In this document: positions 1-44,830 of the stretch, one piece after another
How positions within the stretch are numbered: position 1 is the first letter of the stretch
How the letters are laid out: every line of letters starts with the position of its first letter
Source: a virus
Lineage: Duplodnaviria > Heunggongvirae > Uroviricota > Caudoviricetes
IMG/VR virus record: IMGVR_UViG_2740892487_000005
Coordinates: 1-44,830 of that record
DNA length: 44,830 bases
Reading direction: 5' to 3' (one strand)
The notes under the pieces: generated by a model
Told to the model about the DNA's origin: nothing
Seen by the model: the letters and a program-made list of their open reading frames with translations, nothing else
The model's database searches: none
Made by a program: the position numbers and the translations under genes

Positions 1-474
1 TTAGGTTTTTTTTCGTTGAGCGTCGCGAATAGCTTCACTGTGTGGACGTGCTGCATGAACCGGGCGGCTGTCTAAAATCACCCGATTAACGCCGCGCTGA
101 TGTAAACCGCGATTAAGCGTTTGTTCCTCTTCTCCTTTGGCGAAAAACTGTGGATGGCGGACTTCCACGCCATAATTAAATTCGCCAGGAAGAGAATCGA
201 GAAAATGCCAAAGCGCAGGCAGCTCCCGTGGGCCGAATGTGGCAGGCAGTTGCAGCCAGTATTGCCCAATGCGCGGAGCCAACGGTGACATGCGGGTCAA
301 AAATTCAGTCACTAAATCATCGCAATGCCGTAATGCTGCCTGATGCGAAATGGTCGCCGGAAACTTAAAACAGAAGCGGAAGTCATCTGTGGTCTGCTCA
401 CGCCAGCGCAGGACAACCTCGGGTTTCGGCAGGGCGTAAAGCGTGGTGTTGCCCTCCACGCAGTTAACATGACG
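1..474 (-). CDS. yecE: DUF72 family protein YecE, 3' portion of host gene; 5' end displaced by prophage insertion
   Basis: 152-aa ORF matches the YecE/DUF72 protein as recalled from memory. In-frame upstream residues diverge into phage-derived sequence near 460-480. The stop at 1-3 looks created by an extra T in the T8 run at 6-13, so the gene probably continues off the window. Confidence 0.7.
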   Translation of the reverse strand, partial: RHVNCVEGNTTLYALPKPEVVLRWREQTTDDFRFCFKFPATISHQAALRHCDDLVTEFLTRMSPLAPRIGQYWLQLPATFGPRELPALWHFLDSLPGEFNYGVEVRHPQFFAKGEEEQTLNRGLHQRGVNRVILDSRPVHAARPHSEAIRDAQRKKT

Positions 475-490
475 GGCGTTAGGGGTTAAC
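455..490. other. Approximate host/prophage junction (attL region) between yecE remnant and integrase 3' end
   Basis: Host-like yecE reading frame ends about here and the integrase stop is at 486. Exact core not determinable without attR. Confidence 0.35.
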
Positions 491-1800
491 TTACTGATTT
501 TAATAATCCTCCAGTACTGCTCTCGTGGCTATGGGGCATCAATGGGGCAAAATCTGCCAGCTTCTGATTCAGCATTGCGATCTGCTCTGCGCTGCTGTCA
601 GCCATCCATGCACCGTAAACATTGAACACCATCTGCGCGCTCGCATGCCCCATCTGACTGGCAATAAAACTCGGGTTTGCACCAGCAGATAATGACCAGC
701 ACGCATAGGTATGTCGTGACTGGTACGCCTTTCTGTGTCTGATCCCCGCGCGCTTTAGTGCCGCTTCCCATGAGTCGCCTACTGAATCGACCCGGTAGAT
801 AAATCCGACCTGCTTACTGCGTCTGACCACATGCGGGTTAAAGACGAATGTACACTCATGGGTCACCGAACGACCGTACTCACGTAACTGCACTTCAATG
901 TGATATTGCCTGCCCAGCCTTGTCATTTCAGCCTGATTTTTCAGGATGCTGATTGCGGGCTGGATAAGATGCACCACTCGATCTGTGCTTGCCTCGGTTT
1001 TCGGTAGAGTGAACTCACCAAGTTTCGTATAATTACGCCTGACGGTAATTGTTCCCGCCTTCAGGTCGATATCTTCCCAGGCCAGGGAGACCAGTTCCCC
1101 GTGACGCATTCCTGTGTACACTGCTAATGACCACAGGTTTTTCGTCTGCTGATGCCGGCATGCATCTATCAGGCGAATAAATTCATCACGAGACAGAGGA
1201 TCTGGTTCTGCCCTGGCTTTTTTCAGAGGTTTAATTCCCTCGAATGGGTTCACCTCTAAGTAACCGTGATCCGCAGCAAACTGAAACATTCCGGCCATTG
1301 TCGTCATGTAATAGTTCACAGTAACAACGCTTCGCCCTTTTGCCGGGGCTTTATTTTTCGTCGGACTCTGATAACCAGTTAGCAAATCTTTCCTGAGATA
1401 CAGCAATTCCTCTTTGGTTACTGCTGACACCAGGCGATTACCTCCGATCCTCGGCACCATATTCCTTGCGACAGATTCATAGCGATTGAATGCGTTCGCG
1501 CAGATTTCCATCCGTTTCAGATCCAGCCATTTTTCTTCAAGTTCTTTCACTGTAATGTCTTTTTTTACTTACACCAAAAGCCTTGAGGTTAGGGGAGTCA
1601 GGAAACTGGGTTGCATAATCAAAGGTTCCTGTGCGGATGGCAAAACATACTGATGTCCGCAGTTCCCCGGCTATCTTTCTGTTCTTAGCGGTGTCAGGGA
1701 CACCGAGACTTTCCCTGACACGCTTACCTTTAAAATTAAACCAGATGCGTAATGTGCCACCGTGGTTTTCGACGCCTGTTGGATATGTGACTTTATCCAT
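486..1800 (-). CDS. int: Tyrosine integrase (lambda Int family with N-terminal arm-binding domain); split in this sequence by a single-base indel
   Basis: ORFs 1537..1800 (N-terminal arm-binding-like 87 aa) and 486..1550 (354-aa core and catalytic domain) are adjacent in different frames. Removing one T from the T7 run at 1560-1566 joins them into about 438 aa. Confidence 0.9.
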
Positions 1801-2910: not shown

Positions 2911-3150
2911 TCATGCCGCGCGCCGGGCACGCAGCGATTTAATGTGCTCGCTCGTCTCCAGTTCGGCGCGTATCTGTGCCGCTTCGTGATGGTCTAAAGG
3001 TTCGAAGTCTGAATTAAATCTGTCGATTGATGCTGTGTTGATCCGGCCCTGTCGCCAGTAGCGGACTATCTGTGATGTGCAACTGTGGATGATGACGGGC
3101 CAACCGTGCTGGTCAGCGTAAATCTGACCCCGTTGAATTAGCTGGAACAT
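2911..3150 (-). CDS. Hypothetical phage protein
   Basis: 79-aa ORF in the early-left operon, start overlapping the upstream gene. Confidence 0.45.
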   Translation of the reverse strand: MFQLIQRGQIYADQHGWPVIIHSCTSQIVRYWRQGRINTASIDRFNSDFEPLDHHEAAQIRAELETSEHIKSLRARRAA

Positions 3151-3799
3151 TGGGCACCACCTTAAATTCGATTACCCAGACCCAAGGGTTGGAGTCGAAG
3201 CTACCTTCGCCATTGGCCTTATCCCACCACGCTTTAAAGCCGTGCATTTCTGGACACAGCCCTACCGGAACGCCAGCGATCGCATAATGCTCGGCATGGT
3301 TGAAGGCTCGTCCAGCTACGGTTTCGCAGTGTTCGAGCATGTCGCCAAGGTCATTCAGCAAGTCTGATTCATTAGCCGTCTGAAGTTTCTCGACTCGGAT
3401 GCCGGTTATCTCCAGGGTGATTCGGCTGGCGGCGCGAGGCATTACTGCGCCAGATTGTGGACGTGTCCAGTCTCCCCATTCTGGCTCACCATCGGCCCAA
3501 TACCAGAAGTCCGGGACTTCTTGAGGAACTGCCGGATCAAAGAAGTTAAATGCGTCGAGCCGTGAAAATGACTCTCTGACATAAATCGCATCGCCAACTG
3601 CACCGAATGGACATGGATGCCAGTAATCGCACACGTGCTCCTCATCTTCGCTCCATGGCCACATGCTTCCGTCGTCGCGCTCTGCAATTTCAGTAGCCCG
3701 AGTATGACGCCATTTGATAGGGCGCCGAACCTGCGTCATGCTGCCATCAAGCAAGGCGCGCACCTGATACTCATTAAAAATCATTCCACGATCTTTCAC
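3113..3799 (-). CDS. Hypothetical phage protein (228 aa, acidic, Trp-rich)
   Basis: Long ORF in the early-left operon; no family recognised by eye. Confidence 0.6.
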   Translation of the reverse strand: MKDRGMIFNEYQVRALLDGSMTQVRRPIKWRHTRATEIAERDDGSMWPWSEDEEHVCDYWHPCPFGAVGDAIYVRESFSRLDAFNFFDPAVPQEVPDFWYWADGEPEWGDWTRPQSGAVMPRAASRITLEITGIRVEKLQTANESDLLNDLGDMLEHCETVAGRAFNHAEHYAIAGVPVGLCPEMHGFKAWWDKANGEGSFDSNPWVWVIEFKVVPNVPANSTGSDLR

Positions 3800-9209: not shown

Positions 9210-9887
9210 TTATGGGATGTTTAGTATTTTGGCATCAACCACAACGCCGATGATTTTGCAGTTTCCATTAATTTCTAGCATTGGATATGCGGGGTTAAGG
9301 GGCTTTAGGAAGCGTCTGCCGGCATCGATTACAAGCTTCTTAAAGGTCGCTTCGTTATCGCCTTCTAGCTTCGCGACAACCAGCTTTCCGTTGCGCGGCT
9401 CGACTTCAGGATCAACAAGTATCGCTGCTCCCTCGGGTATGCTCAGTCCAGCCGGGGAGGTCATAGAATCCCCTTTAACGTCCAGCCAGAATGAATCTTC
9501 TGAGCAGTCAACAGTCGTGTCATACCAGCGATCTATCGCTCTTCGGTGATAAGGTTCTACAGCTTCCATCCATTGCCCCGCGCTTACCCAGCTGATTACA
9601 GGATAACTTCCTTTTGTCTCGTTCAGTCCTCGAAATGCAACGTTCGAAGGTTCTTCACTGGCGTGTAAAACATCCATCCAGCCAAAAGGCAGATCAAGCG
9701 CAGTTTCAATTTTGCGAGCCATCTTATCGCCGATATTGCGATGAGGGTTTGGTCCCAGTAGCTGGCTAAGCGCAGCCGGACTTGTCTCGATGAGCTCGGC
9801 AAACTGCGCTTTGGTCATTCCAGACTCGTGCTGACGCTTCTCGTACAGCGCTTCCAGGTTGGCTTTTCTGATTTCTTTATTTTCCAT
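9210..9887 (-). CDS. cI: CI-type repressor (N-terminal HTH, C-terminal S24 LexA-like peptidase domain)
   Basis: ORF 9210..10004; probable start at ATG 9887 (MENKEIRKANLEALYEKRQ…). Contains HTH and a GDSM…K self-cleavage-type domain. Divergent from cro across the operator region. Confidence 0.9.
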   Translation of the reverse strand: MENKEIRKANLEALYEKRQHESGMTKAQFAELIETSPAALSQLLGPNPHRNIGDKMARKIETALDLPFGWMDVLHASEEPSNVAFRGLNETKGSYPVISWVSAGQWMEAVEPYHRRAIDRWYDTTVDCSEDSFWLDVKGDSMTSPAGLSIPEGAAILVDPEVEPRNGKLVVAKLEGDNEATFKKLVIDAGRRFLKPLNPAYPMLEINGNCKIIGVVVDAKILNIP

Positions 9888-9904
9888 ACCTGCATTGTTA
9901 CTGC

Positions 9905-9971
9905 TTTTAGCAAAATGATAAATGTGCAAATTGCTAAATGATGCTTGCGTAGTATTTAGCATAACGCTAAA
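9905..9971. promoter_or_regulatory. Putative OR operators with PRM/PR between cI and cro
   Basis: Three sites related to TTTAGC-N5-GCTAAA, including a perfect palindrome TTTAGCataacGCTAAA at 9954-9970, in the 116-bp divergent intergenic region. Confidence 0.55.
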
Positions 9972-10003
9972 CTCCAAATCAAACGACTCACCCGGAGACA
10001 CCA

Positions 10004-10237
10004 ATGAGCACTGAACTACACCGCTGGCGCAAGGCCGCCACTACCGACGAATGGGCGCAGCTCGCAAAGTTGGCTAACACGACGCCAGGTTACCTGGACC
10101 AGATCGCCTACGGAAATCGCCGGGCATCTCCAGAAATGGCATCTGCTATCGAGAAAGGCACGAAGAATTTTCACCGCCAGGCTCCGGTCCTAAAAGAAAG
10201 CCTGGTATTCGCATCGCCGCGTGATACTGCGGCCTAA
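10004..10237 (+). CDS. cro: Cro-like transcriptional regulator (YdaS-type HTH)
   Basis: 77-aa ORF divergent from cI, first gene of the rightward operon. Confidence 0.7.
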   Translation: MSTELHRWRKAATTDEWAQLAKLANTTPGYLDQIAYGNRRASPEMASAIEKGTKNFHRQAPVLKESLVFASPRDTAA

Positions 10238-10254: not shown

Positions 10255-10800
10255 ATGCATTCACTTGCGTATCAACAAGGTAACAAATTTTCGCCAGCGG
10301 CGATGATTTACCAGAATCGCCGGGAGCGAGAATCCTCGGCGTTAAATATCGATGGGATCCGCGCAGCAGTACGCGCCTGGGCAGCTGATTGCCGCAGTCG
10401 TGAATTTGTCGCCGCGCTGATCGTGGAAGAGTGGCGGGCGTCCGGCGGAACCGGTCTGGATATCCCGACTGACTCGCACCGCCAGATGCAGAAAGTGTTT
10501 CGATGGATTGATGGCGATACCGAATACGCCGCCAACAACATTCGCCAGCTGGCCCCGGCAATCATGTCGGTCCTGCCGCTGGAGTACCGAAACCGTCTGG
10601 CGCCGCAGAACGACACGATGTCGCTGATCGCCTCTGCGATGAAAGAGTGTGCCGAGGCTAAACAGGCCGTGCTGCTGGACGCTCCAGAGCATCAGAAGCT
10701 CAAAGAGGTAAGCGAGGGTATAGCGTCGCTGTTCCGCCTCATGCCGGAGCAGGTAGGACCGCTGATGACGATGGTTACATCGATGCTGGGGGTTATATGA
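10255..10800 (+). CDS. CII-like / YdaT-family regulatory protein
   Basis: 181-aa ORF immediately after cro, in the position of cII/YdaT of Rac-like prophages; family assignment from memory. Confidence 0.45.
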   Translation: MHSLAYQQGNKFSPAAMIYQNRRERESSALNIDGIRAAVRAWAADCRSREFVAALIVEEWRASGGTGLDIPTDSHRQMQKVFRWIDGDTEYAANNIRQLAPAIMSVLPLEYRNRLAPQNDTMSLIASAMKECAEAKQAVLLDAPEHQKLKEVSEGIASLFRLMPEQVGPLMTMVTSMLGVI

Positions 10801-19545: not shown

Positions 19546-20287
19546 ATGCATCAACACATAGCAAACGCCACGTTTCAGGTCATCGCAGGTGACTCAAGTG
19601 GCAGTGGTTTTAGCTTCATCCGTGAAGATTTAGTTGTCACTAATTACCATGTTATAGAGTCATGCTTTAATCTAGAAACCAGAAGTCAAACCCATAGCAT
19701 CATCCTGAAAACGGAAGCTAATGAGCAAATTGCAGCTGGGATTGTCTACTTTGACCACGGTAATGATTTTGTCATCATGAAACTGCTTTCAGCACTGCCC
19801 ACAGGTAGAGTTGTTCTTCAGCCTTCCGTTGGTTTTTCACCCACCAGAGGCAAAAAAAATTATCTTTGCCGGTTATCCACACGGAATACCGCAGTTGCTG
19901 ACAAATGAAGCAATTATCTCAGCACCTATGGAGTTAGGCAGATTTGCAATTGATGGTATGGTCAATGGTGGTAATTCTGGCGGGCCAATTATAGATCGAG
20001 CCTCTGGCGAACTGGTGGGTGTCGTCACTCGGCGTAGATATCTTATGGGCGATCAAGCTGATGCTTTCAGTGAGGAGATTGAAAATTTGCGCCAATATCT
20101 TGCTGCAGCAAGCCAACATGGAAGTGTAGCAATAATGGGTGTCAATTTCGGCCAGATGGCAGATATGTTCGGTAGATCGCTACAGATAGTTTCAGATATG
20201 ATGTTGCTTAACGCTAATTCTGGCATCGGAATAGGATTCTCAATGCAGCCTATCATTGACGCCCTTAGCACCATCCCAACAGAATAA
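19546..20287 (+). CDS. Trypsin-like (S1/chymotrypsin-fold) serine protease, no signal peptide; split by an indel in this sequence
   Basis: ORFs 19546..19908 and 19811..20287 join when one A is removed from the A8 run at 19851-19858. Catalytic triad context TNYHV / DFVIMKL / GNSGGP. RBS GGAGAA before the ATG. Confidence 0.8.
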
Positions 20288-42179: not shown

Positions 42180-42194
42180 ATGCCAGGAGCTAGC

Positions 42195-44186
42195 ATGACC
42201 ACATACGCCACGAATAACCCGAGAGGGTCAATGGATCCGAAGGACCTGTTCGATAACGCCCAGAACCTGGACTTTGCGGTAAACGATATTACCAAAGCAT
42301 TCTGGAAGGACCGCTTCGGCAGAAATCGACCAACAATGTTTGGCATGGAGCAGGCGTTTTCTGCCCAGCTGCTTAGCCAGAAACAGCGCTTTGACAATTT
42401 TATCCAGAGTTCAGGGTATAAGGTTATTGGTGATTATACCGATGGCCCGCTGACTATTACTGAATATAACCAGCTAATCCGTTATCAGAATGAGTTCTAC
42501 AAATTAACCGCCGCCACAACACTGCCGTTTACCACCACCGGTAATGACGCAACATCATGGGCCAATGATTCCCTGCATTTTGTCAGCGTGGGAGATGCTG
42601 CGCTTCGTCAGGAGCTGTCCGCGCCGGGGGGTGCGAGCCTGGTTGGCCCTGGGGTGATGGCTCGTGGTATTGATAAATTCTCAATATTTAATGGCAACCT
42701 AGGGGAAAATGCAACCCCTGGATTACGGGTTGATCTCAATACTCTGACAGGACAATCGACCGGTAACGGTAATTTCCTAAACATGGTTTTTATACCATCC
42801 GATCAATTGGACACCACGGGTAAAGTCGCTGGCCAGATGATTGATCATAGATTCGGAGGCGGTGCCGGAGGTAGACATGGGTTTATGTCAAGATTGATCC
42901 AATCATCACCGCAGTTAAGTACAACAAATGACCAGAACTACGTGGCTGTGGTAGCTCAAGTATTGTGTGATGCAGGCGACCCCATAGAAACATCTACCGG
43001 GTCTGTTCTTTTTGCCAGTGAGTCTTTTGCTGAAAGCCGAACAGATACTGGCAAAGTCAGGGCTGTTATTGGGTCGCTGCATGAGGCAGGGGTCTCAGGA
43101 ACAGTAATTCCACTTGATCGAATTGGCGTTCAAGTAACAAGTCAAGGCACAAAGAATGCCACTCGAGTTGATGCAGCCATTGGTGTGTCATCTGGGACTT
43201 CGCGCGCAGCCTGGAAAAACGGGATTAAGTTTTCAAATGTTACAGGTGGGCAAGTATTTGATTCAACATCCTGTGCAATTATCCTGGATCCAGAATCAAC
43301 ATCACAACCTAAGATGACCCTAGACGCGATTATAAAGGTCAAATCTTCTGATGTAACATTCAACAACATAATAGACACTCCAAGGGTAAAGCTGTCTCAA
43401 TCAGGCCTGGATATTAATTTAAGCTCGTCGTACATAAAACTTGGTGGGACGGTTGCTAGCAATACCCCGCATGTTAGTTTTCGCTCTGGCGCAACAGCCG
43501 CTCCAGGTTTTGATTCTAGATTTATCGCCACTGGAGGCAATGGCTCAGATGCGGGGGGGTCATTACAGGCACAATGCGCTACCCTAATTGTGTCTGGCAC
43601 GCTCAGGCCTAGCTCTGCAAACACATCTCTATGTGGTACGACATCACAACCATGGTCTGGCGGATTTACTCAAACTGCATTCACCGTAACCTCGGACGAA
43701 ACCCACAAGACAAAGCCGATAATGCTAGCTCGTGGCGTTCTGAAGCCTGCGACATCTTTAGATGCCGAAATGATGCCCCCTCCTCATGCTGATACCATTC
43801 TCGACGCATGGGCTGAGGTTGATTTCGTGCAATTCAAGTATCTAGACCGGGTAGAGGCGAAAGGTGAAGACGGTGCCCGTTGGCACTTTGGTGTTATTGC
43901 TCAGAGGGCTATTGAAGCATTTGAGCGCCACGGACTCGACGCATTTGCATTCGGATTTGCGTGCTATGACGAATGGGGCGGGACAGAGGAAGTTATCGAT
44001 GAAGAGTCGGGAGAGGTAATTACTGAGCGAGTTGACGCAGGCTCTAAATACGGCATTCGCTATGAAGAGGCGCTGGTATTGGAGGCAGCTCTCCAACGTC
44101 GCAACTATGCGAGATTGTTGGCCGATCAGGAGACAATGGCCGCACGTATTGAAAAGCTTGAAAGTCTACTCAGTAAGGCGAATTGA
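42195..44186 (+). CDS. Tail fibre/spike protein with C-terminal intramolecular chaperone (peptidase S74-like) domain
   Basis: Start at ATG 42195 after AGGAG. Central region visibly AT-rich. C-terminal …TSDETHK…DAWAEVDFVQFKYLD…GARWHFGVIAQ… resembles the self-cleaving chaperone domain of endosialidase-type fibres. Confidence 0.75.
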   Translation: MTTYATNNPRGSMDPKDLFDNAQNLDFAVNDITKAFWKDRFGRNRPTMFGMEQAFSAQLLSQKQRFDNFIQSSGYKVIGDYTDGPLTITEYNQLIRYQNEFYKLTAATTLPFTTTGNDATSWANDSLHFVSVGDAALRQELSAPGGASLVGPGVMARGIDKFSIFNGNLGENATPGLRVDLNTLTGQSTGNGNFLNMVFIPSDQLDTTGKVAGQMIDHRFGGGAGGRHGFMSRLIQSSPQLSTTNDQNYVAVVAQVLCDAGDPIETSTGSVLFASESFAESRTDTGKVRAVIGSLHEAGVSGTVIPLDRIGVQVTSQGTKNATRVDAAIGVSSGTSRAAWKNGIKFSNVTGGQVFDSTSCAIILDPESTSQPKMTLDAIIKVKSSDVTFNNIIDTPRVKLSQSGLDINLSSSYIKLGGTVASNTPHVSFRSGATAAPGFDSRFIATGGNGSDAGGSLQAQCATLIVSGTLRPSSANTSLCGTTSQPWSGGFTQTAFTVTSDETHKTKPIMLARGVLKPATSLDAEMMPPPHADTILDAWAEVDFVQFKYLDRVEAKGEDGARWHFGVIAQRAIEAFERHGLDAFAFGFACYDEWGGTEEVIDEESGEVITERVDAGSKYGIRYEEALVLEAALQRRNYARLLADQETMAARIEKLESLLSKAN

Positions 44187-44223
44187 TAGGCAGCCTCGCA
44201 TTGATCTGCAATCCCTTTAAAAC

Positions 44224-44243
44224 TACTGTATATAAAAACAGTA
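44224..44243. promoter_or_regulatory. LexA (SOS) box
   Basis: TACTGTATATAAAAACAGTA matches CTGT-N8-ACAG, placed 15 bp upstream of the ATG at 44259. Confidence 0.7.
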
Positions 44244-44258
44244 AAAGGAGTGCAGATC

Positions 44259-44498
44259 ATGCCCCGCCGTTCCGACATTCACGCCGCATTTGTGGCTGCA
44301 ATACAGCAAAACCCTAAAGGTTATCAGTGCCTTCACACGAATGACTTCATCCGTGAGTTGCGCGCCAGGAACTGGCATTTCACGCAGGCCGACGCCAACG
44401 ACTGGATAGAGCGCTATCAGCCCGACTTCGCCGACAAGACTACAGACCTGAGCGTGAACCGCCTGTGGATCCTGCGCAATATGGGGAGGGTTCACTAA
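44259..44498 (+). CDS. Hypothetical SOS-regulated protein (80 aa)
   Basis: ATG 44259 with AAGGAG RBS directly downstream of the LexA box. Confidence 0.5.
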   Translation: MPRRSDIHAAFVAAIQQNPKGYQCLHTNDFIRELRARNWHFTQADANDWIERYQPDFADKTTDLSVNRLWILRNMGRVH

Positions 44499-44830
44499 TG
44501 GGCTTCGCCTCACCAGCTACCGACTATATAGAGCAGCGGGTTACGCCAGCCAGTGTCTGCATGACTCCCGACAGTCGCATCCTCGAGACGTCGGCGGGTT
44601 ATGCGATCATCGTCCCGGTCACGCGCCCACAGCAGGGTGATGCGCTGTTGATTCTGTCCGGAGGTCGGACGCAGTTTGCGAAGCTTAGGGGTAAAGCGTT
44701 AATCACGGATGACGGCGAAGCGATCGAAGGTGATGCAGCTGAAGAGGCTGAGGTTATGAGGCGGGTGACGCACTTTATCAACAGCACTGATGCTGCGATA
44801 TCTCCTGAGGCGGCATTGGCGCAGTTTTGA
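44498..44830 (+). CDS. UmuD'-like protein (resembles pre-processed UmuD, lacks catalytic Ser motif)
   Basis: Coupled start (TAATG) after GGGGAGGG. N-terminus MGFASPATDYIEQR… resembles UmuD residues following its self-cleavage site (GFPSPAADYVEQR…, from memory); no GDSM motif. Confidence 0.45.
   Translation: MGFASPATDYIEQRVTPASVCMTPDSRILETSAGYAIIVPVTRPQQGDALLILSGGRTQFAKLRGKALITDDGEAIEGDAAEEAEVMRRVTHFINSTDAAISPEAALAQF

What the first reader, a model, noticed from the sequence alone, without database searches (positions are those of the whole stretch)
44220..44830. LexA-box-controlled two-gene operon ending in a UmuD'-like (pre-cleaved UmuD) protein
A near-consensus SOS box (TACTGTATATAAAAACAGTA) overlaps the promoter of an 80-aa unknown gene that is translationally coupled to a 111-aa gene. 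The second product begins MGFASPATDYIEQR…, resembling UmuD immediately after its autocleavage site, and lacks the catalytic GDSM motif. That is the architecture of phage P1 HumD-type proteins. It suggests a prophage-borne, LexA-regulated modulator of SOS mutagenesis (or an antirepressor-type function) located beyond the tail fibre.
Basis: partly seen in the sequence, partly recalled or inferred. Interest (0 to 1): 0.5.

Follow-up and report, generated by a model that had tools for sequence, protein, structure and literature searches.

The report
SOS-controlled phage UmuD′-like gene pair
At the far end of this prophage sits a two-gene unit, switched on by DNA damage, that encodes an already-trimmed and enzymatically dead copy of the bacterial mutagenesis protein UmuD′ plus a small unknown partner; it is a little-studied variant of a known phage gene type, and the same pair occurs on many phages and plasmids.

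Summary
A 20-bp LexA operator (44224-44243) is identical to the E. coli K-12 umuDC operator. It lies 15 nt upstream of a 79-aa gene (44259-44498), which overlaps a 110-aa gene (44498-44830) by one base (TAATG).

The operator, the gene pair and the overlap are conserved in about 120 related loci, down to 35-45% protein identity. dN/dS is about 0.15 for both genes. The module sits at the attR end of lambdoid and P22-like prophages. ORF1 plus a UmuD′-like gene also occurs on IncX3 and IncY plasmids, never with umuC in the loci inspected.

The phage's own CI repressor has a full S24 domain, so an antirepressor is not needed.

Most likely function (inferred): an SOS-timed, RecA-independent UmuD′ surrogate or modulator for host UmuC (Pol V). 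ORF1's role is unknown.

Verdict: new variant of a known kind (HumD class); moderate interest.

The parts
44201..44206 (+). Putative -35 hexamer TTGATC. It lies 17 nt upstream of the first half of the LexA box, which then occupies the -10 position (TACTGT).
   Evidence: TTGATC or TTGCCC is conserved at this position in the box-anchored alignment of 99 distinct upstream regions. The K-12 umuDC upstream region has the same ATTGATCTGC, the same 17-nt spacing and the same operator. The generic promoter scan found nothing, because TACTGT matches only 3 of 6 positions. The assignment is inferred.
44224..44243 (+). LexA operator (SOS box) TACTGTATATAAAAACAGTA
   Evidence: It is identical to the K-12 umuDC operator. 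It is the only consensus-like site in the window, with 0 of 100 shuffles matching. It is the top PWM score at 30.6 bits, against 11.7 for the next independent site. It is conserved in 117 of 122 related loci.
44245..44250 (+). Shine-Dalgarno sequence AAGGAG for ORF1
   Evidence: Read from the sequence; 8 nt before ATG 44259.
44259..44498 (+). ORF1: 79-aa protein of unknown function (phrog_3893), a conserved upstream partner of orphan UmuD′-like genes
   Evidence: phrog_3893 E=2e-41. 211 homologues, one 100% identical in E. coli. dN/dS 0.16. It precedes short-type or HumD-type UmuD′ genes in phages and plasmids. No Pfam, NCBIfam, PDB or PADLOC match.
44485..44489 (+). Shine-Dalgarno sequence GGAGG for ORF2, inside the end of ORF1
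   Evidence: Read from the sequence; 8 nt before ATG 44498.
44498..44830 (+). ORF2: 110-aa pre-truncated, catalytically dead UmuD′ homologue (phrog_3469, 'UmuD-like protein')

Best explanation
The feature is a LexA-repressed, two-gene accessory operon at the attR end of a lambdoid prophage. Its regulatory region resembles the host umuDC promoter-operator: the same TTGATC hexamer, the same 17-nt spacing and an identical 20-bp operator. LexA should therefore keep it off in the lysogen, and RecA*-triggered LexA cleavage should turn it on together with the host's late SOS genes.

The second gene makes a UmuD′ analogue that is 'born cleaved': it starts at the equivalent of UmuD Gly25. It no longer has a protease active site, because the Ser60 loop is deleted and Lys97 aligns to Ala. 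It also lacks the residues that UmuD uses to dock in the RecA filament groove.

The most likely mechanism is inferred by homology to P1 HumD, which the P1 record says complements UmuD′. On this view the protein dimerises through the retained S24 beta-core. It uses the near-invariant GF(P)SPAxDYxE arm and binds host UmuC. That would supply or alter the accessory subunit of DNA polymerase V without waiting for slow RecA*-mediated UmuD processing, and so change translesion synthesis and mutagenesis while the prophage is being induced.

The first gene (79 aa) is a conserved but dispensable partner. Its biochemical role is unknown, and a cofactor or regulator of the same step is the default guess.

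Shown: operator identity and conservation, the operon structure, UmuD′/HumD homology, loss of the catalytic dyad, purifying selection, distribution. Inferred: LexA binding in vivo, the UmuC partnership, and whether the effect on Pol V is activating or inhibiting.
For: Operator and promoter:
- The operator is identical to K-12 umuDC, with the same -35-like hexamer and spacing.
- It is unique in the window.
- It is conserved in 117 of 122 loci, including relatives with 35-45% protein identity.

Operon structure:
- TAATG or TGATG overlap in 91 of 103 pairs.
- Both ORFs are under purifying selection, dN/dS about 0.15.

Homology of ORF2:
- A broad profile hits UmuD at E=3e-12 over UmuD residues 25-102.
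- hhalign to P1 HumD is full-length with probability 98.7%.
- The acidic C-terminal tail DDxPV/I is shared between most family members and HumD-type proteins, but not by the window's own allele or by UmuD.

Catalytic loss:
- An 11-aa deletion covers Ser60, and Lys97 aligns to Ala or Gly.

Same genomic slot as HumD-type genes:
- HK140 has DinI <-> ORF1 + HumD-type gene -> attP.
- N15 gene 26 follows the tail fibre.

No umuC lies next to the module in any annotated locus inspected. A host-encoded partner is therefore required.
Against: - No experiment bears on this short family.
- It scores far below the HumD equivalog cut-off (23 versus 120 bits) and misses Pfam Peptidase_S24 altogether. Functional equivalence to HumD or UmuD′ is therefore not assured.
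- Deleting the active-site loop and changing surface residues could abolish or invert the activity, giving an inhibitor rather than an activator.
- The family carries a near-invariant acidic motif (ITEDGEAIEG) that is absent from UmuD and HumD. This hints at a different partner.
- ORF1's role is unexplained.
- The AF2 model has only moderate confidence (pLDDT 73.8, pTM 0.57).
Confidence: 0.55

Rival explanations
1. Dominant-negative decoy. The degenerate UmuD′ binds UmuC, or heterodimerises with UmuD/UmuD′, and blocks formation of active Pol V. That would suppress SOS mutagenesis, or the UmuD2C checkpoint, during prophage induction.
For: The protein has lost the catalytic loop and several surface residues but keeps the N-terminal arm and the beta-core. 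It has a family-specific acidic motif not found in functional UmuD′ or HumD. Its similarity to HumD is far below the equivalog cut-off.
Against: UmuD′ needs no catalysis once cleaved, so loss of the dyad is also expected for an activator. HumD-type genes occupy the same slot, and HumD is recorded as complementing UmuD′. There is no direct evidence for inhibition.
Confidence: 0.2
2. RecA-filament modulator. The S24-like protein, with or without ORF1, binds the RecA* groove. It would tune the coprotease or recombination activity, and so the timing of CI, LexA and UmuD cleavage, acting in the same pathway as DinI.
For: A DinI-like gene lies divergently upstream in 24 of 134 related loci, and in HK140, mEp390 and HK225. 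LexA, UmuD and lambda CI all bind the RecA groove through the S24 domain (PMC9926225). F26 and P29 of the UmuD cleavage-site region contact RecA, and their equivalents (F3, P6) are invariant.
Against: The UmuD residues shown to matter for RecA docking align to R27 (Y52), T58 (F94), G55 (D91) and R57 (E93) in ORF2. Both the hydrophobic pocket and the acidic patch are therefore lost or charge-reversed. The window has no DinI-like gene.
Confidence: 0.12
3. SOS-controlled antirepressor module (Tum or Gifsy type). One of the two proteins would inactivate a phage repressor and so couple induction to LexA.
For: It is the only LexA box in the prophage. It encodes small proteins at the prophage end remote from the immunity region. 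LexA-controlled antirepressors in such positions are a known arrangement (my own knowledge; not checked here).
Against: This prophage's CI (9213-10004, minus strand) has HTH_3 plus a full Peptidase_S24 domain (E=2e-29). It can therefore sense RecA* directly. The same module occurs on IncX3 conjugative plasmids. ORF2 is clearly a UmuD′ derivative.
Confidence: 0.05
4. Toxin-antitoxin or anti-phage defence pair under SOS control.
For: Two small, translationally coupled genes lie in a prophage accessory slot.
Against: There are no PADLOC hits. The two genes occur independently. ORF2 is found alone in P1, N15 and the 'solo' loci. ORF1 is found without ORF2 in HK225. ORF2 alleles recombine exactly at the gene junction. 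ORF2's ancestry is UmuD′.
Confidence: 0.03

Closest known systems
Bacteriophage P1 HumD, with N15 gp26, phiKO2 gp23 and HK140 gp28: phage-borne, LexA-regulated, pre-truncated UmuD′ homologues
   Same: All start at MGFPSPA, the equivalent of UmuD Gly25. All are orphans without umuC. A LexA site lies upstream, and in N15 and HK140 the gene lies just after the tail-fibre genes. Homology runs over the full length (hhalign 98.7%). Most short-family members share the acidic C-terminal DDxPV/I tail with these proteins.
   Different: HumD-type proteins are about 129 aa. They keep the active-site loop (ADSH in P1, GATH in N15 and HK140), the Lys97 equivalent, and the Y52, D91, E93 and F94 equivalents. 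ORF2 is 110 aa, with the loop deleted and these residues changed. It scores 23 bits against the 120-bit cut-off of the HumD NCBIfam model. P1 and N15 lack ORF1.
E. coli UmuD/UmuD′ and the umuDC operon
   Same: The 20-bp LexA operator is identical, with the same TTGATC hexamer and spacing. The first 14 residues of UmuD′ are nearly identical. Both have the S24 fold.
   Different: ORF2 has no N-terminal 24-residue pro-segment, no Ser60/Lys97 dyad and no umuC downstream. A 79-aa gene is inserted between the operator and the UmuD′-like gene.
ORF1 + UmuD′-like pairs on IncX3 conjugative plasmids and IncY P1-like phage-plasmids
   Same: The two-gene order is the same: a 79-aa ORF1 homologue (38-45% identity) immediately followed by an MGFPSPA... 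protein, with no umuC. A LexA box and TTGATC lie upstream in the IncY example.
   Different: The plasmid UmuD′-like proteins are HumD-length (118-127 aa). In IncX3 the operator is cut by an IS element.
Non-catalytic S24-like domains such as the C-terminal domain of the phage 186 CI repressor
   Different: ORF2 has no DNA-binding domain, and its sequence ancestry is specifically UmuD′/HumD.
impCAB-type plasmid operons: a small upstream gene, then a UmuD-like gene, then a UmuC-like gene, under LexA control (my own knowledge; cited only as a reference title)
   Same: An SOS-regulated operon in which a gene of about 80 aa precedes the UmuD-like gene.
   Different: ImpC is, to my recollection, DinI-like. 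ORF1 shows no similarity to a phage DinI (hhalign probability 0.3%). There is no umuC-like third gene here.

Membership tests
SOS (LexA) regulon | A LexA operator matching CTGT-N8-ACAG / TACTGTATATATATACAGTA that overlaps the promoter | tested here: met
   The 20-mer is identical to the K-12 umuDC operator. 0 of 100 shuffles match. It is conserved in 117 of 122 loci.
SOS (LexA) regulon | LexA binding and DNA-damage induction in vivo | not testable with these tools
   Needs EMSA, ChIP or a reporter fusion.
UmuD′ / HumD-class accessory proteins | Sequence homology to UmuD′/HumD beyond the N-terminal arm | tested here: met
   Profile A2 against UmuD gives E=3e-12 over UmuD residues 25-102. hhalign against HumD gives probability 98.7% over the full length. 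The narrow profile A1 saw only the first 14 residues.
UmuD′ / HumD-class accessory proteins | Translation starts at the post-cleavage residue (the Gly25 equivalent), with no pro-segment | tested here: met
   M-GF(A/P)SPA aligns to UmuD G25-F26-P27-S28-P29-A30.
UmuD′ / HumD-class accessory proteins | Curated model threshold (NCBIfam NF051876 HumD, cut-off 120 bits) | tested here: not met
   23.3 bits, residues 1-30 only.
UmuD′ / HumD-class accessory proteins | Complements UmuD′ with UmuC in SOS mutagenesis | not testable with these tools
Peptidase S24 (LexA/UmuD/CI autoproteases) | S24 beta-fold | tested here: met
Peptidase S24 (LexA/UmuD/CI autoproteases) | Ser-Lys catalytic dyad (UmuD S60, K97) | tested here: not met
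   An 11-residue gap spans GDSMIDGGISD. K97 aligns to Ala61, or to Gly/Ala/Thr in relatives.
Peptidase S24 (LexA/UmuD/CI autoproteases) | Pfam PF00717 gathering threshold | tested here: not met
   No PF00717 hit at E<=1, whereas the prophage CI scores 101.9 bits.
PHROG phrog_3469 ('UmuD-like protein') and phrog_3893 (unknown function) | Full-length profile match | tested here: met
   ORF2 E=6.5e-41 over residues 1-100. ORF1 E=2.1e-41 over residues 1-79.
LexA-controlled antirepressor modules (Tum or Gifsy type) | The cognate phage repressor lacks a self-cleaving S24 domain, so it needs an antirepressor | tested here: not met
   The CI at 9213-10004 (minus strand) has Peptidase_S24, E=2.3e-29.
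DinI family (tested for ORF1) | Sequence or profile similarity to DinI | tested here: not met
   hhalign of A4 against HK140 DinI gives probability 0.3%. No Pfam DinI hit.
Known anti-phage defence systems | Match to PADLOC models | tested here: not met
   0 families for either protein at E<=1.

The most novel reading that the evidence does not exclude
ORF1 plus an orphan, born-cleaved UmuD′ may form a distinct two-component SOS module. It is spread by prophages, phage-plasmids and more than 1000 (mostly IncX3) plasmids. On this reading ORF1 is a previously unrecognised Pol V or UmuD′ cofactor or regulator. The loop-deleted short form would have been re-purposed, through its invariant acidic ITEDGEAIEG surface, to a partner other than the RecA groove. 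Mobile elements would then actively reprogramme host damage-induced mutagenesis, which bears on how resistance evolves on NDM-type plasmids.
Probability: 0.2. Interest if true: 0.7.

Novelty: new variant of a known kind. Interest (0 to 1): 0.42.

Why it matters
Pol V activity is normally delayed by slow RecA*-dependent UmuD cleavage, and this delay limits mutagenesis. Mobile elements that supply a ready-made UmuD′ under the umuDC operator could bypass or distort that safeguard.

The short, catalytically dead form described here and its conserved 79-aa partner are widespread in Enterobacteriaceae prophages. HumD-length versions of the pair occur on clinically important IncX3 plasmids. I found no functional study of either in the searchable literature.

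If they alter translesion synthesis, they affect prophage survival after DNA damage and host mutation rates under antibiotics that induce the SOS response. If they do nothing to Pol V, the near-invariant UmuD′ arm in a protein that has lost the catalytic and RecA-docking residues would need another explanation.

Tried and rejected
- The narrow family profile A1 (30 close homologues) detected only the 14-residue N-terminal motif in UmuD (E about 5e-3). It gave a useless AF2 model with pLDDT 47. Adding Erwinia, Pantoea and Klebsiella relatives (A2) resolved both problems.
- Pfam and NCBIfam single-sequence scans did not recognise ORF2 as S24 or HumD.
- ORF1 gave nothing usable. Pfam showed only a sub-threshold DUF7669 hit in 7 of 26 members. 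The PDB profile search, NCBIfam and PADLOC found nothing. hhalign against DinI and against UmuC found nothing. Both structure-prediction jobs went on ORF2, so ORF1 has no model.
- The generic sigma-70 scan found no promoter. The promoter assignment rests on conservation and on the umuDC parallel.
- A near-identity DNA search of phage genomes with the locus found nothing. Protein-level searches were needed.
- Rfam found nothing.
- Literature searches found no study of this short family or of ORF1. The HumD paper (PMC94175) is not held.
- The antirepressor idea was rejected after finding an S24 domain in the CI repressor.
- The toxin-antitoxin or defence idea was rejected because the genes occur independently and PADLOC has no hits.
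- The LexA PWM was built from E. coli operators recalled from memory. It is supportive only. The decisive evidence is identity to the K-12 umuDC operator read from the genome.

Full report
**1. What is in the sequence**

- The intergenic region after the tail-fibre gene (42180-44186) contains TACTGTATATAAAAACAGTA at 44224-44243. The tail-fibre gene has a Peptidase_S74 chaperone C-terminus and tail-fibre PHROG matches.
- AAGGAG (44245-44250) lies 8 nt before ATG 44259. This opens a 79-aa ORF that ends at TAA 44496-44498.
- The last A of that stop is the first base of ATG 44498. This opens a 110-aa ORF preceded by GGAGG (44485-44489). Its stop codon is the last triplet of the window.

**2. Is the box more than chance?**

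- The bare CTGT-N8-ACAG core is not significant: 35 of 100 shuffles give at least one match.
- The full 20-mer differs from the LexA consensus at 2 positions. No shuffle gave a site within 3 mismatches.
- With a PWM built from E. coli operators recalled from memory, it scores 30.6 bits. The next independent site in the window scores 11.7.
- I read the umuDC upstream region of E. coli K-12 MG1655 directly. The operator there is the identical 20-mer.
- That region is preceded by the same ATTGATCTGC, containing TTGATC, at the same 17-nt distance, and further upstream by the same ATTGATAG. The phage operon therefore uses a umuDC-type promoter-operator.
- In that arrangement the left half of the box sits where the -10 element should be. 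The generic promoter scan misses it because TACTGT matches only 3 of 6 positions. This promoter assignment is an inference.

**3. Conservation**

- Homologues of both proteins are numerous: 609 for ORF2 and 211 for ORF1. They are confined to Enterobacteriaceae and Erwiniaceae and are nearly all annotated 'hypothetical'.
- I fetched 134 related loci from genomes and viral contigs.
- ORF1 lies immediately upstream of ORF2 in about 105 of them.
- The stop/start overlap is TAATG or TGATG in 91 of 103 scored pairs.
- A CTG-N10-CAG box lies within 80 nt of the operon start in 117 of 122 loci. It sits 14-24 nt from the start codon even where the proteins are only 35-45% identical to the window's.
- Pairwise dN/dS is 0.16 for ORF1 and 0.15 for ORF2. 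Both are real genes under purifying selection.
- The antisense ORF at 44223-44513 is most likely spurious, since purifying selection supports ORF1 on the plus strand.

**4. What ORF2 is**

- Single-sequence scans fail. There is no Pfam Peptidase_S24 hit. NCBIfam HumD matches residues 1-30 only, at 23 bits against a cut-off of 120. PHROGs places it in phrog_3469, 'UmuD-like protein'.
- A profile of close relatives sees only the GFPSPAADYVEQR arm of UmuD′.
- More distant family members from Erwinia, Pantoea and Klebsiella look progressively more like UmuD′.
- With those included, the profile hits UmuD (8gmt_B) at E=3e-12 over UmuD residues 25-102. A single 11-residue gap removes exactly GDSMIDGGISD, the loop carrying the nucleophile Ser60.
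- hhalign against P1 HumD aligns the whole length with probability 98.7%, E=1.8e-16.
- The AF2 model from the broad alignment has pLDDT 73.8, with the core at about 80-88.
- In the multiple alignment UmuD Lys97 aligns to Ala61, and to Gly, Ala or Thr in relatives.
- ORF2 is therefore a genuine UmuD′ homologue. It is born at the post-cleavage residue and both catalytic residues are gone.

**5. Relation to HumD**

- P1 HumD, N15 gp26 and HK140 gp28 are also pre-truncated, but they are 129 aa long.
- They keep the loop (ADSH in P1, GATH in N15 and HK140) and the Lys97 equivalent.
- They also keep the equivalents of UmuD Y52, D91, E93 and F94.
- The RecA-UmuD cryo-EM study shows these four residues to be needed for docking in the RecA filament groove (PMC9926225).
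- In ORF2 these positions are R27, G55, R57 and T58. This is based on the alignment.
- Most of the short family shares the acidic C-terminal tail (DDxPV/I) with HumD-type proteins but not with UmuD. The window's allele ends differently, in DAAISPEAALAQF.
- I conclude that the short family is a further-degenerated sister of the HumD type. It has lost what UmuD needs for RecA-mediated processing, and a born-cleaved protein does not need that machinery.
- The family has gained a near-invariant acidic motif, L-I-T-E/D-D-G-E-A-I-E-G.

**6. Genomic setting**

- The window is a complete lambdoid prophage. It contains an integrase, a CI/Cro pair, a Q antiterminator, head and tail genes and a tail fibre. 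The operon is its last feature.
- In annotated relatives the module is the last thing before attR or attP:
  - a P22-like prophage next to intS and tRNA-Arg;
  - a lambdoid prophage next to yciB;
  - HK140 and mEp390 just before attP.
- No umuC is adjacent in any inspected locus.
- In HK140, mEp390 and HK225, and in 24 of 134 loci, a DinI-like gene is divergently transcribed from the same intergenic region. The window has none.
- ORF1 precedes either the short type (mEp390) or the HumD type (HK140).
- ORF2 also occurs without ORF1 in P1, N15 and the 'solo' loci.
- The solo allele in E. coli MS 115-1 is 98% identical in DNA to the window's ORF2. That similarity begins exactly at the ORF2 start codon, so the two genes are exchanged as separate modules.
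- ORF1 homologues (about 38-45% identity) occur on 1040 plasmid records, 948 of them conjugative. In both contexts I opened (IncX3 and IncY) they are followed by an MGFPSPA... UmuD′-like gene with no umuC.

**7. ORF1**

- ORF1 matches phrog_3893 (unknown function) and nothing else.
- Pfam gives only a sub-threshold DUF7669 hit. The PDB profile search, NCBIfam and PADLOC find nothing. It resembles neither DinI nor UmuC.
- Invariant residues are A10, F11, F30, L34, A46, N47, W49, I50 and F57.

**8. Mechanism**

- Shown: a umuDC-type LexA operator, a coupled two-gene operon, a dead born-cleaved UmuD′ homologue, and no linked umuC.
- Inferred: LexA represses the operon in the lysogen, and DNA damage derepresses it together with the host SOS genes.
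- Inferred: ORF2 acts through the surfaces it has kept, namely the UmuD′ arm and the beta-core with its C-terminal strand. It would act on the host Pol V system, most simply as a UmuD′ surrogate for UmuC. That is the activity the P1 record notes for HumD.
- My probabilities:
  - about 0.9 that this is a LexA-regulated UmuD′-derived module;
  - about 0.45-0.55 that it supports or modifies Pol V through UmuC;
  - about 0.2 that it is instead an inhibitor or decoy;
  - about 0.1 that it modulates RecA filaments, disfavoured by the lost docking residues;
  - about 0.05 that it is an antirepressor, disfavoured because CI (9213-10004, minus strand) has a full S24 domain, E=2e-29, and because the module also lives on conjugative plasmids;
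  - below 0.05 that it is a toxin-antitoxin or defence pair.

**9. Novelty**

- The kind is known: phage HumD-type, LexA-regulated orphan UmuD′ genes. This family already has a PHROG and the label 'UmuD-like protein' in some phage records (mEp390, phiES15).
- Several points are not described in anything I could search:
  - the active-site loop deletion;
  - the loss of RecA-docking residues;
  - the umuDC-identical promoter-operator;
  - the conserved ORF1 partner shared by prophages and IncX3/IncY plasmids.
- I rate it a new variant of a known kind, of moderate interest.

Noticed in passing
window 486-1800 (minus strand): The integrase appears split into two overlapping ORFs. One is at 1537-1800, an 87-aa N-terminal arm-binding-like segment. 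The other is at 486-1550, 354 aa with the Phage_integrase catalytic domain. This may be a frameshift, giving a defective prophage, or a sequencing error.
   Followed up: no
window 1-459 (minus strand): The left end of the window is a fragment of a DUF72-family gene (E=6e-33). It is presumably host DNA beside attL. The window is therefore a prophage cut out with one host-gene stub on the left and none on the right.
   Followed up: no
window 10255-10797 (+): A 181-aa protein with a YdaT_toxin domain (E=2e-27) lies directly downstream of the Cro-like gene in the immunity region.
   Followed up: no
L002 6001-6333, and L003, L004, L060-L069: A 'solo' ORF2 allele is 97-98% identical to the window's ORF2 and lacks ORF1. 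It has its own LexA box, and the DNA similarity starts exactly at the ORF2 start codon (seen in the E. coli MS 115-1 hit). In L002 a divergent DinI-like gene lies upstream. ORF1 and ORF2 therefore recombine as separate modules.
   Followed up: partly
Plasmid loci L143 (IncX3 pVH1, 3001-3599) and L144 (IncY, 3001-3625): ORF1 homologues occur on 1040 plasmid records, 948 of them conjugative. In both loci opened they are followed by a born-cleaved UmuD′-like gene with no umuC. In IncX3 an ISKox3 insertion has removed the left half of the LexA box.
   Followed up: partly
Proteins P0388, P0475 and P0332 (metagenome and genome collections): P0388 joins a full UmuD-like N-terminus, including the Cys-Gly cleavage site, to the loop-deleted short domain. 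P0475 and P0332 read as ORF1-ORF2 fusions. These could be natural hybrids or fusions, or assembly or frameshift artefacts.
   Followed up: no
L140 (mEp390 RefSeq NC_019721), locus 2262-2495: The RefSeq annotation of mEp390 omits the ORF1 homologue. It annotates a 42-aa antisense ORF (F859_gp25) in its place, whereas the GenBank record lists a hypothetical protein there. One E. coli RefSeq record names an ORF1 homologue 'PH domain-containing protein', and several sources call ORF1 'DNA polymerase V'. These are probably annotation artefacts.
   Followed up: no
L141 (HK225), locus 2501-2800: HK225 carries an ORF1 homologue with an altered, longer C-terminus and no UmuD′-like gene. A DNA invertase follows instead.
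   Followed up: no
window 19811-20284 (+): An ORF with only the C-terminal part of a trypsin-like peptidase domain (Trypsin_2, E=1.6e-6) lies between the Q/lysis region and the terminase genes.
   Followed up: no
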